Positions 2,542 to 8,112 of a DNA stretch of 8,503 nucleotides are shown here, piece by piece. A model generated the notes under the pieces. The model saw nothing but the letters and a program-made list of their open reading frames with translations, had not been told where the DNA came from and did not search any database. The position numbers and the translations under genes are program-made. This DNA is from Promethearchaeota archaeon (GTDB lineage Archaea > Asgardarchaeota > Thorarchaeia > Thorarchaeales > Thorarchaeaceae), in assembly GCA_027031765.1 (NCBI GenBank), contig JALVPN010000060.1, positions 6,038 to 14,540 of the forward strand, written 5' to 3'. Position 1 is the stretch's first letter; every line of letters begins with the position of its first letter.

Positions 2542-4442
2542 CAGGGAGCTCAGAGAAGGCTGGCGATGATGCCAAGGCCCTGTGCTATGATGTTGTCGCC
2601 AGGATTGACGTTGACGCCGTAGGCCTGTGCCACGATGACACGTACCTCTACGTGGCCTCTCGTGAGGGTCGTGTGCAGGTGTGGTCCAAGGAGTCATGGA
2701 AGAGCGTTGCCACCCTTGGTGAGACGTCCACGCCACCGCTGTGCGTGCTTGTGGACGCAGACCATGTCTATGCAATATGTGAGCGCAGGGTGTACGTCTG
2801 GCAAAAGGCCACTTGGGGGATGATAGGCTGGTTCGAGCTCAGCTACCAGGCCGTCACGGCCGACATACAGGGCAGCTACCTCTACATCGGCGCCAAGGAC
2901 GGCCGTCTGGTGGCCATACGCACCGACACACGTGACACATCTAGCTGGACCCTTCACAAGTCGGATATCACTGGACTGTGGGCCGACAGGGACGTCATAT
3001 GCACCGTGCCGAGAAAGGGCAGCCCATGTGTGTGGAGCCTCCCCGGCACCAAGCAACCGGAAGAGGTCGTCTCCCTTGAGAGAAAGGAGCGGGCGGTGTC
3101 TGTGGCTGGCAACAGCGAGTGCCTGCTCGTGGCCCTTGCCAATGGCAAGGTCGACATATGGGACCGGAGTTCATGGTCGCTGGACGAGACCGTCGAGGCG
3201 AGCCCCTCAGGGCCTGTCGTCTCCATGTGGGCCAACGACCTCTTCATGGTGGCCGCCACCATGACCGAGACCATCTCACTGTGGGACATGCGGAGGGTCA
3301 TCCCTGTGGGGGAGCTGCGGGTGGAACGCGTCAAGTTCGACCATGTCCTGGGCGACTGCGAGCTGCTCTACGTCACGGCGCCCACTGAGGTGCTCGTGCT
3401 CAGGATACTGTACAGTGACCGTGTGGTCGACCTGTGCAGTGACAGCGGAATCCCCACTGACGAGGGCCTGTTGCGTACCTCCCCATATGACGTACTTGAG
3501 ATGATACTACAGCACCGTGAGCGTGGTGACGAGCTCCTCCGGGCCGGTTCACACCACGAGGCAGTGGCCGAGTATGAGAGGGCCCTCCAGGTCCTCGTTG
3601 ACAGTGCCAGGGCCCTGCTCGAAGTGCCGGAGGAACGCGAGCGGCTGAGCCGCGACCTCAACTCCAGGCTGGGACGGGCACTGCTGCGGGCCAAGATCGA
3701 TGAGGTGCAGCAGTTGCGCAGGGCCGTTGCCGGGATAGTGGAGGAACTGGAGTCCGAGGGCCGCCTGATACGGGACGTCCAGGACGTGCACCAGCTGTGG
3801 TTGGAGGCAGGACATGTCCTGAAAGAGAGCTCGATACTCTCAGAGGCGCAGGGAGGCAACGTCCTCAGCTTCCAGCTGATGTACGAGGCCGACCAGCTGC
3901 GTACAGAGCTCGACCGGGCCCGGCGTATGGTGGACGACTACCTCGCCCGTGTCAATGAGGTCAGGGCCCTCACACAGAGCATGCTCAGTGAGTGGCGGTG
4001 GCTTGAACGCAGGCGTACGGCCCTTCCAGACAGGACTGCATTCCTGGAACGGGCTATGGACACCCTTAGAGGACGTCTGGAGTCGGCAGATGGCGACCCG
4101 GAGGTCGAGAACATCCTGCGGGAGGCACTCGCCTACTATCAGGGCCTCCACGACAAGATAGGACGGATAATCTCTTCTACTCAACAGTGTGACGAGCTGC
4201 CTGTCAGCCGTGACGATGCCCTCAGTGCGGTCCGTGGCCTGCTGGGAGTGTTGCCTGCCCGTCTTGAGGCGCTCACGTCCACTGAGGACACAGACCGGCA
4301 TGCAACCGCCCTCGAGTCGTTGGTGGCTGCCATCAATGAGGCCATCGAGCTGGCCAAGAAGTTCAAGTTCAAAGACGAGCTCTCCGAGCTGGAGGCCGCG
4401 TTGGAGGGGCTGACTGAGGGCAAAGGGGAGGACTCGGAGTAG
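2538..4442 (+). CDS. WD40-like 7-blade beta-propeller fused to a TPR/MIT-like and alpha-helical C-terminal region (634 aa)
   Basis: About aa 20-290 contain seven ~40-aa blades, e.g. YLYVASREGRVQVWSKESW, YLYIGAKDGRLVAI, LLVALANGKVDIWDRSSW, FMVAATMTETISLWDMRR. From aa ~316 the protein is helical, beginning with the TPR-like segment ERGDELLRAGSHHEAVAEYERALQV. A GGTGG SD-like motif lies upstream of ATG 2538. Confidence 0.92.
   Translation: MAGSSEKAGDDAKALCYDVVARIDVDAVGLCHDDTYLYVASREGRVQVWSKESWKSVATLGETSTPPLCVLVDADHVYAICERRVYVWQKATWGMIGWFELSYQAVTADIQGSYLYIGAKDGRLVAIRTDTRDTSSWTLHKSDITGLWADRDVICTVPRKGSPCVWSLPGTKQPEEVVSLERKERAVSVAGNSECLLVALANGKVDIWDRSSWSLDETVEASPSGPVVSMWANDLFMVAATMTETISLWDMRRVIPVGELRVERVKFDHVLGDCELLYVTAPTEVLVLRILYSDRVVDLCSDSGIPTDEGLLRTSPYDVLEMILQHRERGDELLRAGSHHEAVAEYERALQVLVDSARALLEVPEERERLSRDLNSRLGRALLRAKIDEVQQLRRAVAGIVEELESEGRLIRDVQDVHQLWLEAGHVLKESSILSEAQGGNVLSFQLMYEADQLRTELDRARRMVDDYLARVNEVRALTQSMLSEWRWLERRRTALPDRTAFLERAMDTLRGRLESADGDPEVENILREALAYYQGLHDKIGRIISSTQQCDELPVSRDDALSAVRGLLGVLPARLEALTSTEDTDRHATALESLVAAINEAIELAKKFKFKDELSELEAALEGLTEGKGEDSE

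Positions 4443-8112: not shown

What the first reader, a model, noticed from the sequence alone, without database searches (positions are those of the whole stretch)
3483..8112. A soluble WD40 protein and a receptor-like membrane protein appear to share one ~320-aa helical module
By-eye alignment of 3483-4442 with 7036-8112 is collinear. Start, ungapped: PYDVLEMILQHRERGDELLRAGSHHEAV vs PERIVAWVTMEEARGADLLKERKHDEAL (P-x12-RG-x-[ED]-LL-[RK]-x3-H-x-EA). Middle: VHQLWLEAGHVLKESSILSEAQG vs VEELLENASSIATEAKAVCGAGG; ELDRARRMVD vs LATKARELLD; DRTAFLERAMDTLRGRL vs GRIERLTSARDALLEAL. End, one gap: DALSAVRGLLGVLPARLEAL...D.D...E...AIELAKKFKFKD vs DARDSVEALLWKLEKQLEEL...D.D...E...AEAIARKFGLDD. From the conserved Arg to the stop the lengths are 306 and 345 aa, and the 39-aa difference matches one low-complexity insert in the membrane protein. 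If real, an unnamed domain was duplicated and fused to a propeller in one gene and to an ectodomain/multi-TM unit in the other. The two proteins might co-assemble through it, linking an extracellular sensor to a cytoplasmic coat-like partner (inference). Identity is low, and helical proteins can align spuriously.
Basis: partly seen in the sequence, partly recalled or inferred. Interest (0 to 1): 0.8.

Follow-up and report, generated by a model that had tools for sequence, protein, structure and literature searches.

The report
Shared helical tail domain in Thorarchaeota
A soluble WD40 protein and a nearby membrane protein of an Asgard (Thorarchaeota) archaeon do share one undescribed ~320-residue all-helical cytoplasmic domain, which this genome has copied onto about a dozen receptor-like proteins, but whether the two proteins bind each other through it is still untested.

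Summary
Plain BLASTP sees only the last 55 residues (E 0.042). Independent profiles of the two tails align collinearly over ~300 columns, from the PYDVLE/PERIVAW start to the A-[KR]-[KR]-F end (hhalign 98% probability, E 8e-14). Each half is significant alone. Shuffled, reversed and unrelated helical controls score E >= 0.02.

AlphaFold2 gives both tails the same 11 helices in the same order and with similar lengths (pLDDT 91 and 84). The membrane protein has one extra disordered Lys-rich insert. The domain has no Pfam family and no convincing match among solved structures. Its first ~80 residues look like a TPR/MIT-type three-helix bundle, and the rest resembles a spectrin-like rod.

The domain was found only in one Asgard family: 31 of 43 genomes, against 0 of 157 other genomes of the phylum. 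Most of those genomes carry one copy, on the WD40 protein. That gene sits in a conserved cluster with a CetZ-like tubulin-family GTPase, a 900-aa helical protein and a TPR protein. The window's genome has 14 matches, mostly on FG-GAP/TSP3 single-pass receptors.

Duplication and fusion are supported. Co-assembly is not shown. I favour a cytoplasmic docking role, as inference.

The parts
2538..4442 (+). P0001: soluble 634-aa protein with a WD40-type beta-propeller (about residues 24-300) followed by the helical module
   Evidence: ORF and translation. Many WD40/beta-propeller Pfam hits, best E 2.6e-8, none reaching a family cut-off. No hydrophobic segment. Syntenic orthologues of 625-656 aa in at least 9 loci.
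3483..4421 (+). Helical module of P0001 (residues 316-628)
   Evidence: hhalign against the non-WD40 tails: E 8.2e-14 over 301 columns. AF2 pLDDT 91.4, 11 helices.
3483..3719 (+). First bundle of the P0001 module: TPR/MIT-like three-helix bundle (residues 316-394)
   Evidence: VIA-align: Vps4 MIT 2v6x_A Z 10.3, rmsd 2.2, 79 of 82 aligned; 2w2u_B Z 10.2, rmsd 2.0; 5lb7_B rmsd 1.6. Sub-threshold TPR hits. hhalign of this bundle alone against the other tails: E 5.5e-7.
4203..4421 (+). C-terminal signature bundle of P0001 (residues 556-628) with the ...A-K-K-F-K-F... motif
   Evidence: An HMM of the last ~75 residues finds it at E 2.3e-21, co-terminal with the protein. There is a clean gap to the first non-member (E 0.001). 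Alignment A4.
5242..8112 (+). P0002: 956-aa membrane protein (936 aa from the start called in the database, nt 5302). It has a signal peptide or anchor, a ~185-aa ectodomain, about nine TM helices, a charged linker and the helical module.
   Evidence: Translation. Database protein P0012 of 936 aa. Hydropathy.
5371..5973 (+). Signal peptide/anchor (residues 44-62) and ectodomain (63-244) of P0002
   Evidence: Hydropathy. Residues ~40-220 match many separate 230-280-aa ORFs in related genomes. In G015 this part is a separate 274-aa gene.
5974..6846 (+). Polytopic membrane region of P0002 (residues 245-535, 9 or 10 TM helices)
   Evidence: Kyte-Doolittle profile. Residues 352-566 match a 400-aa TM protein next to the same cluster in G015.
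7036..8106 (+). Helical module of P0002 (residues 599-955)
   Evidence: hhalign. AF2 pLDDT 83.9, with the same helix order and lengths as P0001. Paralogues found by phmmer and iterated HMM.
7309..7428 (+). Lys/Arg-rich low-complexity insert specific to P0002 (residues ~690-729)
   Evidence: Gap in all other members in alignment A1. pLDDT 46-52 in the AF2 model.
7879..8106 (+). C-terminal signature bundle of P0002 (residues 880-955) with ...A-R-K-F-G-L-D-D-L...
   Evidence: C-terminal HMM, E 1.7e-22. The same 75-aa unit alone ends the G015 TM protein (E 1.2e-11).
4463..5140 (-). P0004: TPR protein between the two genes and a conserved neighbour of the WD40-tail gene
   Evidence: Pfam TPR_2 E 5.8e-16, above cut-off. 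Directly after the WD40-tail gene in all 10 related loci checked.
2..2320 (-). P0003: the N-terminal 773 codons of a 902-aa all-helical protein, divergent from P0001. It is conserved next to a tubulin-family gene that lies just outside the window.
   Evidence: Not related to the module (hhalign E 0.029).

Best explanation
Shown: the two tails are homologous copies of one undescribed ~320-residue all-alpha domain. It was found only in one Asgard family, whose named members are labelled Thorarchaeota. The models show 11 helices. My reading, from the helix lengths and the MIT-type and spectrin-type matches, is an elongated chain of roughly four helical bundles joined by 44- and 50-residue helices. 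It starts with a TPR/MIT-like three-helix bundle. It ends, always at the very C-terminus of the protein, in a 75-residue signature bundle (E-A-R..V-E..L ... W...E.L...L..A..L-A..F-G-L).

Its usual and probably original home is the single-copy WD40 protein. That gene lies in a conserved cluster of a CetZ-like tubulin-family GTPase, a 362-aa protein, a 900-aa helical protein and a TPR protein. In a few lineages, and massively in this genome (14 matches), a divergent subfamily of the domain sits on other proteins. These are the inner end of type I receptors (signal peptide, FG-GAP propeller or TSP3 repeats, one TM helix), the polytopic P0002, and some soluble proteins.

Inferred, about 35-40% likely: the domain is a cytoplasmic docking rod. 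Its conserved terminal bundles attach whatever is fused in front of it to one common cytoplasmic partner or assembly. The proteins of the conserved tubulin-family cluster are the obvious candidates. On this view, surface receptors and the WD40 scaffold are brought to the same place without having to bind each other directly.

Homology itself I rate at about 95%.
For: Homology: (profile-profile E 3e-9 and 8e-14, both halves significant, controls clean). In one search, P0001 enters an HMM seeded only from the P0002 tail at E 6.8e-5, co-terminal.

Same fold: (matching helix order and lengths). share about 17 entries among their top 50.

Cytoplasmic location: P0001 and other members have no TM helix or signal peptide. 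P0035 has a signal peptide, FG-GAP repeats, a TM helix at 989-1007, then the module. C222 is built the same way.

The conserved role does not need a second module-bearing protein: one match per genome in most genomes of the family.

Conserved cluster with a tubulin-family gene in all full-length loci checked, across several genera.

The C-terminal bundle behaves as a self-contained tag. It alone ends a 400-aa TM protein that sits next to the same cluster in G015. Its HMM separates members (E <= 7e-15) from everything else in the genome (E >= 0.001).
Against: No partner has been identified and no binding was tested successfully.

The two AF2 models used the same 29-sequence alignment, so their agreement is not independent. 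I could not superpose them because coordinates are not exposed.

Structural matches lie in the Z range that is common for helical bundles (all Z < 13).

The topology of P0002 (9 or 10 TM helices) is unresolved, so a cytoplasmic location for its tail rests on analogy with the other members.

Gene neighbourhood with the tubulin-family gene is evidence only for the WD40 copy, not for the receptor copies. Apart from P0002, the receptor copies lie on other contigs.
Confidence: 0.4

Rival explanations
1. One reading: the module is a self-association domain. The WD40 protein and the membrane proteins homo- or hetero-oligomerise module to module, which couples the extracellular sensors directly to the WD40 scaffold.
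For: Shared homologous domains often associate. Module-bearing genes lie close together in three loci. P0001 and P0002 are 0.8 kb apart with one TPR gene between them. In G015 the WD40-tail gene sits near a TM protein that carries the C-terminal bundle. The receptor P0035 is followed directly by the soluble P0036. Homo-oligomerisation would also fit the single-copy genomes.
Against: P0035 and P0036 are each other's closest relatives (99/97 support). Their adjacency can therefore be explained by tandem duplication alone. P0001 and P0002 tails share only ~17% identity and sit in separate deep clades. The other module-bearing genes of this genome lie on other contigs.
Confidence: 0.28
2. The module is a passive structural rod or spacer. 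It is a stable helical stalk reused because it folds well. It has no common partner, and each host protein has its own function.
For: The predicted shape is elongated and spectrin-like (1u4q_B Z 10.6, 233 residues aligned). The middle of the module is poorly conserved and tolerates inserts. The non-WD40 copies have long branches.
Against: The module is always at the extreme C-terminus, never internal. It ends in a strongly conserved 75-residue signature that also occurs on its own. A mere spacer would not need a conserved free end.
Confidence: 0.2
3. The first bundle is a true MIT domain. It would recruit the host proteins to ESCRT-III filaments through MIM motifs.
For: Both models match whole MIT domains at low rmsd. 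For P0001: 2v6x_A with 79 of 82 residues at 2.2 A, archaeal 2w2u_B with 72 of 74 at 2.0 A, and 5lb7_B, 4a5x_B, 8uc6_B. For P0002: 5lb7_B, 2w2u_B, 4a5x_B, 8uc6_B. Asgard archaea have ESCRT systems (established knowledge; PMC10936438 is listed).
Against: Pfam MIT (PF04212) is not among the families matched by the 29 members, even at E <= 1; only weak TPR hits appear. Z ~10 is within the range seen for unrelated helical bundles (notes). No ESCRT gene is in the conserved cluster.
Confidence: 0.07
4. The similarity is spurious and produced by helical, Glu/Leu/Arg-rich composition.
For: Pairwise BLASTP E is only 0.042 and identity is ~17%. Iterated searches did drift to a generic coiled coil, C109.
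Against: Profile-profile E is 8e-14 over 301 collinear columns. Both halves are significant. Shuffled, reversed and unrelated helical controls all give E >= 0.02, except block shuffles that keep real segments (best E 1.8e-4). Placement is co-terminal in every member.
Confidence: 0.03

Closest known systems
Spectrin-repeat / plakin-type rods (spectrin, alpha-actinin, plectin)
   Same: All-alpha and elongated. Three-helix bundles are joined through long continuous helices (44 and 50 residues here). In eukaryotes such rods link membrane proteins to the cytoskeleton. Best whole-region structural match: 1u4q_B Z 10.6, 233 residues aligned; also 6m3p_B, 1s35_A, 5j1g_B.
   Different: No sequence match to spectrin or any other Pfam family. 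Rmsd is 9 A and Z is in the non-specific range. The bundles are not detectable repeats of one another (self-hhalign E >= 0.0026). The spectrin entries do not recur among the top 50 matches of the P0002 model.
MIT domain (Vps4, katanin p60, MITD1, calpain-7) and the single TPR hairpin
   Same: The first ~80 residues are a three-helix bundle that superposes on whole MIT domains at 1.6-2.3 A in both models. They carry a TPR-like G-x-x-x-E-A-V-x-x-Y-E-x-A-L pattern.
   Different: Pfam MIT is not among the matched families; TPR hits are all below cut-off. The third helix runs on into the next bundle instead of ending. No MIM-bearing partner is known.
Protocoatomer architecture (beta-propeller followed by alpha-solenoid: COPI/COPII/clathrin/Nup/HOPS). 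It has been reported for Thorarchaeota proteins (Zaremba-Niedzwiedzka 2017, as cited in bioRxiv 10.64898/2026.10.28.762692).
   Same: P0001 has an N-terminal WD40-type propeller followed by a long all-helical C-terminal part.
   Different: The helical part is not a solenoid of stacked hairpins. Foldseek against TPR/HEAT-type solenoids gives TM 0.13-0.24. The same helical part also occurs behind TM helices of surface receptors, which coat proteins do not do.
Integrin-alpha-type adhesion receptors, with talin or spectrin as the cytoplasmic linker
   Same: Paralogues in this genome and P0035 have a signal peptide, an FG-GAP propeller, Ca-binding repeats, one TM helix and a cytoplasmic tail. Here the tail is itself a helical-bundle rod, also found on a soluble scaffold protein.
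   Different: This is an analogy of layout only. P0002 has no FG-GAP domain and is polytopic. No actin- or talin-like partner is implicated; the conserved neighbour is a tubulin-family protein.

Membership tests
New Thorarchaeota C-terminal helical module (this report) | Collinear profile match over the ~320-residue module | tested here: met
   P0001-type vs P0002-type profiles: hhalign 98.1%, E 8.2e-14, 301 columns; controls negative.
New Thorarchaeota C-terminal helical module (this report) | 75-residue signature bundle at the extreme C-terminus | tested here: met
   HMM hits at residues 556-628 of 634 (P0001) and 880-955 of 956 (P0002). All 13 ORFs of the genome that hit at E <= 7e-15 are co-terminal.
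Spectrin repeat (PF00435) | Sequence-profile match to the ~106-residue repeat | tested here: not met
   No spectrin hit for P0001 or P0002 at E <= 1, and none among the families listed for the 29 module sequences.
Spectrin repeat (PF00435) | Chain of three-helix bundles joined by continuous helices | tested here: inconclusive
   1u4q_B Z 10.6, rmsd 9.1, 233 aligned. Z is below the ~13 said to be common for helical rods. The spectrin entries are not among the top 50 for the P0002 model.
MIT domain (PF04212) | Sequence-profile match | tested here: not met
   MIT is not among the 25 listed families matched by the 29 members at E <= 1, and it is absent from the P0001 and P0002 scans.
MIT domain (PF04212) | ~75-residue asymmetric three-helix bundle | tested here: inconclusive
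   2v6x_A Z 10.3, rmsd 2.2, 79 of 82; 2w2u_B Z 10.2, rmsd 2.0, 72 of 74. For P0002: 5lb7_B Z 9.4, 2w2u_B Z 8.9. Coverage of the MIT domain is full, but Z is in the non-specific range.
MIT domain (PF04212) | Binds MIM motifs of ESCRT-III proteins | not testable with these tools
   Needs binding assays.
TPR repeat proteins | Tandem 34-residue helix-turn-helix repeats forming a solenoid | tested here: not met
   Only one TPR-like hairpin, with sub-threshold hits (TPR_2 in 7 of 29 members, best E 4.6e-4). Foldseek TM to TPR solenoids is 0.13-0.21.
Protocoatomer-type proteins | N-terminal beta-propeller | tested here: met
   Multiple WD40/beta-propeller profiles over residues 24-270 of P0001, best E 2.6e-8, each below its own family cut-off.
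Protocoatomer-type proteins | C-terminal alpha-solenoid | tested here: not met
   AF2 model pLDDT 91. No solenoid match: Foldseek best E 0.0099, TM <= 0.24. The helices of 44 and 50 residues and the bundle-type matches are unlike stacked hairpins.
Integrin-alpha-like FG-GAP receptors | FG-GAP/VCBS beta-propeller ectodomain plus a single TM helix | tested here: not met
   P0002 has no FG-GAP hit and about nine TM helices. The feature is met by paralogues C28, C162, C222 and by P0035 (PF13517 above cut-off).

The most novel reading that the evidence does not exclude
Thorarchaeota may have an integrin-talin-like outside-in link built from parts of their own. Surface receptors with calcium-binding propeller ectodomains would carry the same cytoplasmic helical rod as a WD40 scaffold protein that belongs to a conserved CetZ-like tubulin cytoskeleton cluster. 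Through that rod the receptors would be physically coupled to a tubulin-family filament system. That would be a prokaryotic receptor-to-cytoskeleton adaptor module in the archaeal lineage closest to eukaryotes.
Probability: 0.15. Interest if true: 0.85.

Novelty: new variant of a known kind. Interest (0 to 1): 0.6.

Why it matters
Asgard archaea are mined for forerunners of eukaryotic membrane and cytoskeleton machinery, and most of their lineage-specific proteins are unnamed. This work defines a new domain, and every named member in the database is annotated as hypothetical or only by its N-terminal repeats.

The domain is portable. It links two classes of protein that annotation keeps apart: cytoplasmic WD40 scaffolds encoded beside a tubulin-family GTPase, and receptor-like surface proteins.

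It also gives a concrete, testable handle, the 75-residue C-terminal bundle. With it one can ask what the conserved tubulin-family cluster of Thorarchaeota does, and whether surface receptors talk to it.

If the domain is only a stalk, the result is still a clean new family for the databases and a correction of the 'protocoatomer-like' reading of this WD40 protein.

Tried and rejected
- Plain BLASTP of the two tails found only 55 residues at E 0.042. It could not decide the question alone.
- The word-index search with the P0002 tail returned only the protein itself. Orthologues and paralogues had to be found through whole-genome searches.
- The complex prediction of the P0002 tail with the P0001 tail gave no verdict (ipSAE 0.00 in both runs, controls not run). 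This is neither support nor evidence against binding.
- Foldseek against the PDB gave no match at E <= 0.001, with TM ~0.2.
- The ESM Atlas search by shape gave a best TM of 0.39 over part of the model. The Atlas search by features gave a best score of 0.83, which is only a lead.
- The sequence-profile search of the PDB found only designed TPR proteins and coiled coils over short stretches.
- I tested whether the neighbouring 902-aa helical protein, the TPR protein, the 362-aa protein or the tubulin-family protein contain the module. None does (hhalign E >= 0.02).
- I tested whether the module is made of internal repeats. Self-comparison gave nothing better than E 0.0026.
- C109 entered the iterated HMM search late. 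It is a generic coiled coil by its Pfam hits and was excluded as drift.
- Most hits of the 1.84-billion-protein search weaker than about E 1e-8 match only the middle of the profile in several stretches. I treated them as coiled-coil noise.
- The Atlas search for the 362-aa cluster protein gave no usable hit.
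Full report
**What is in the window.**
The window is G000:C60:6038-14540 of a 2.95-Mb, 229-contig genome. Contig names and protein labels of the closest database relatives place it in Thorarchaeota/Thorarchaeaceae, an Asgard group. 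The genes are as follows.
- P0003 (2-2320, minus strand): part of a 902-aa all-helical protein.
- P0001 (2538-4442, plus strand): 634 aa, a WD40-type propeller plus a helical tail, with no TM helix.
- P0004 (4463-5140, minus strand): a TPR protein.
- P0002 (5242-8112, plus strand): 956 aa, or 936 aa from the start called in the database. It has a signal peptide, a ~185-aa ectodomain, about nine TM helices, a highly charged linker and a helical tail.
- An ORF from 8192 onward with weak PCI/winged-helix hits.

**Is the similarity real?**
- Pairwise methods are marginal. BLASTP aligns only the last 55 residues (E 0.042). Smith-Waterman scores z = 5.5 against residue shuffles, which is a lenient control for helical sequence.
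- I therefore built independent profiles. The P0001 tail has seven database homologues, all WD40 plus tail. The P0002 tail has none in the word-index search. A six-frame search of the genome and its relatives, however, found paralogues in the same genome.
- An HMM seeded only from the P0002 tail and iterated on the genome's ORFs collected a dozen ORFs whose matches always end at the C-terminus. P0001 entered at iteration 1 with E 6.8e-5.
- hhalign of the P0001-orthologue profile against the P0002-paralogue profile (P0001 excluded) gave 96% probability, E 3e-9 and 299 columns. The alignment starts at SPYDVLE / DAPERIVAW and ends after the A-[KR]-[KR]-F motif.
- With larger, separately aligned sets it gave 98.1%, E 8.2e-14 and 301 columns. 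The N-terminal half alone gave E 1.7e-6 and the C-terminal half alone E 8e-9.
- Controls were clean. Reversed columns scored 15.9 and column shuffles <= 18. Block shuffles, which keep true segments, scored <= 38.8. The real alignment scored 71.5.
- The same tail profile against four neighbouring proteins, two of them long and helical, gave E >= 0.02.
The 39-residue length difference is mostly one Lys-rich insert in P0002.

**Fold.**
- AlphaFold2 on a 29-sequence alignment gave pLDDT 91.4 and pTM 0.67 for the P0001 tail. For the P0002 tail it gave 83.9 and 0.64.
- The two models have the same helices in the same order and with nearly the same lengths: 20/20, 17/17, 44/42, 24/27, 50/51, 21/20, 32/26, 24/24, 25/23 and 16/13 residues. 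P0002 has one extra low-confidence segment at the insert.
- Caveat: both runs used the same alignment, and I could not superpose the coordinates.
- Foldseek finds nothing in the PDB (TM ~0.2), and the Atlas finds nothing convincing.
- The exhaustive aligner matches the first ~80 residues of both models to whole MIT domains at 1.6-2.3 A. It matches residues 1-246 of P0001 to three spectrin repeats (Z 10.6, rmsd 9.1). All Z values are below 13, the range the tool itself calls common for helical bundles.
- Pfam has no family for the module. Only one sub-threshold TPR-like hairpin appears at its start.
- My reading is an elongated chain of roughly four helical bundles joined by long helices. It has a TPR/MIT-like first bundle and a conserved last bundle. 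It is not an alpha-solenoid, so the 'protocoatomer-like' label for P0001 fits the propeller but not the tail.

**Distribution and history.**
- A profile search of 1.84 billion representative proteins found only 28 clusters at E <= 1e-10. Weaker hits are mostly coiled-coil noise.
- Every named member is a 'Candidatus Thorarchaeota' hypothetical or 'VCBS repeat' protein. One is labelled Lokiarchaeota, but its contig is the one that the genome search places in the same family.
- In 200 other genomes sampled from the phylum, the module occurs in 31 of 43 genomes of the window's family and in 0 of 157 others.
- Nearly all positive genomes have one copy, the 625-660-aa WD40-tail protein. The window's genome has 14 matches.
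- The WD40-tail gene sits in a conserved cluster: CoA-ligase, 362-aa protein, tubulin/FtsZ-family GTPase, 900-aa helical protein, then divergently the WD40-tail gene and the TPR gene. All eight loci long enough to show the whole cluster have it; a ninth, cut short by its contig end, shows the part it reaches.
- The GTPase is closest to CetZ among solved structures (4b46_A, E 1.5e-9). It lies just upstream of the window.
- The extra copies in this genome sit on several kinds of protein:
  - behind FG-GAP/PQQ propellers, TSP3 calcium-binding repeats and one TM helix (C28, C162, C222, C115, C50);
  - on a second WD40 group (C142 and three near-identical fragments);
  - on soluble helical proteins (C94, C212).
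- In another MAG, P0035 has a signal peptide, FG-GAP repeats, a TM helix at 989-1007 and then the module. This fixes a cytoplasmic location for the single-pass forms.
- In the domain tree the WD40 tails form one 100/100 clade on a long branch. P0002 groups (98/96) with P0040, P0035 and P0036. P0002's tail is therefore not a recent copy of its neighbour's tail.

**The C-terminal bundle as a unit.**
An HMM of the last ~75 residues finds the 13 module ORFs of the genome at E <= 7e-15. The next ORF scores E 0.001. In G015 the gene next to the same TPR/WD40-tail cluster is a 400-aa TM protein. It matches P0002's membrane region and then goes straight into this 75-residue bundle, without the rest of the rod. 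P0002's ectodomain is a separate gene beside it. P0002 thus looks like a fusion of three parts, and the terminal bundle looks like the indispensable one.

**How it probably works.**
Shown: homology, domain architecture, lineage restriction, synteny, and cytoplasmic placement in the single-pass and soluble forms. The rest is inference.
- Most genomes have only the WD40 copy. The conserved function therefore cannot be pairing with a second, different module-bearing protein. It must be binding of some other conserved partner, or self-association.
- I favour a docking rod that brings varied N-terminal units to one cytoplasmic assembly, at about 35-40%. The cluster proteins are the candidate partners.
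- The single complex prediction gave no verdict and counts for nothing either way.

**Comparison with what is known, and novelty.**
The nearest analogues are spectrin/plakin rods and, for layout, integrin-type receptors with helical-bundle linkers. Membership in the spectrin, MIT, TPR or protocoatomer families is not supported by the tests that could be run. The literature searches turned up no description of this domain. Earlier notes of this scan describe other Asgard FG-GAP/TSP3 receptors with different cytoplasmic modules, so variable inner modules on such receptors seem to be a recurring Asgard theme. I rate this as a new domain family: a new variant of a known kind of modular adaptor or rod domain. 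It is of moderate to good interest, mainly because it ties surface receptors to a conserved tubulin-family gene cluster.

Noticed in passing
G000:C60:3732-5135 (-), i.e. L031:3732-5135, about 0.9 kb upstream of the window start: A 467-aa tubulin/FtsZ-family GTPase (PF00091, E 1.3e-18) whose closest solved relative is CetZ (4b46_A, E 1.5e-9). With a 362-aa protein of no known family and the 902-aa helical protein P0003, it forms a cluster with the WD40-tail and TPR genes. The cluster is conserved in all eight full-length related loci checked. It may be an undescribed Thorarchaeota cytoskeletal module.
   Followed up: partly
G000 contigs C28, C33, C50, C94, C115, C142, C162, C206, C212, C222, C225, C226: The module is expanded in this genome: 14 matches, against one in most relatives. 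Many copies sit at contig ends, so the paralogues probably break the assembly and the true gene count is uncertain.
   Followed up: partly
G000:C142:1528-4092, C33:943-2169, C225:2-1390, C206:1530-2924: Four near-identical C-termini of a second WD40-plus-module group. They have lost the F-G-L motif (...ELCE.VLGE...). One further degenerate copy with two stop codons lies at C33:393-626.
   Followed up: no
window 5371-5973 (P0002 residues 44-244); L036:6400-7224: The ectodomain of P0002 belongs to a family of small (230-280 aa) separately encoded proteins that is widespread in the family's genomes. In G015 one of them is encoded beside a TM protein that matches P0002's membrane region. P0002 therefore looks like a gene fusion.
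   Followed up: partly
L040:6501-12448 (GCA_016933575.1, JAFGAR010000162.1): A 1531-aa FG-GAP receptor carrying the module is followed 108 bp later by a 414-aa soluble protein carrying the module. The two modules are each other's closest relatives, so this is a tandem duplication. A 2094-aa ORF of no known family follows.
   Followed up: partly
window 8192-8503 (continues to C60:15182): A 317-aa ORF downstream of P0002 with weak, sub-threshold PCI and winged-helix (HTH_24, TrmB) hits. It was not found next to the cluster in the relatives checked.
   Followed up: no
window 6847-7035 (P0002 residues 536-598): An extremely charged Glu/Arg/Lys linker (…EEERRRREEEARLEAERQEQLRKEKE…) lies between the last TM helix and the module. 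It is probably a single stable helix or a disordered spacer.
   Followed up: no
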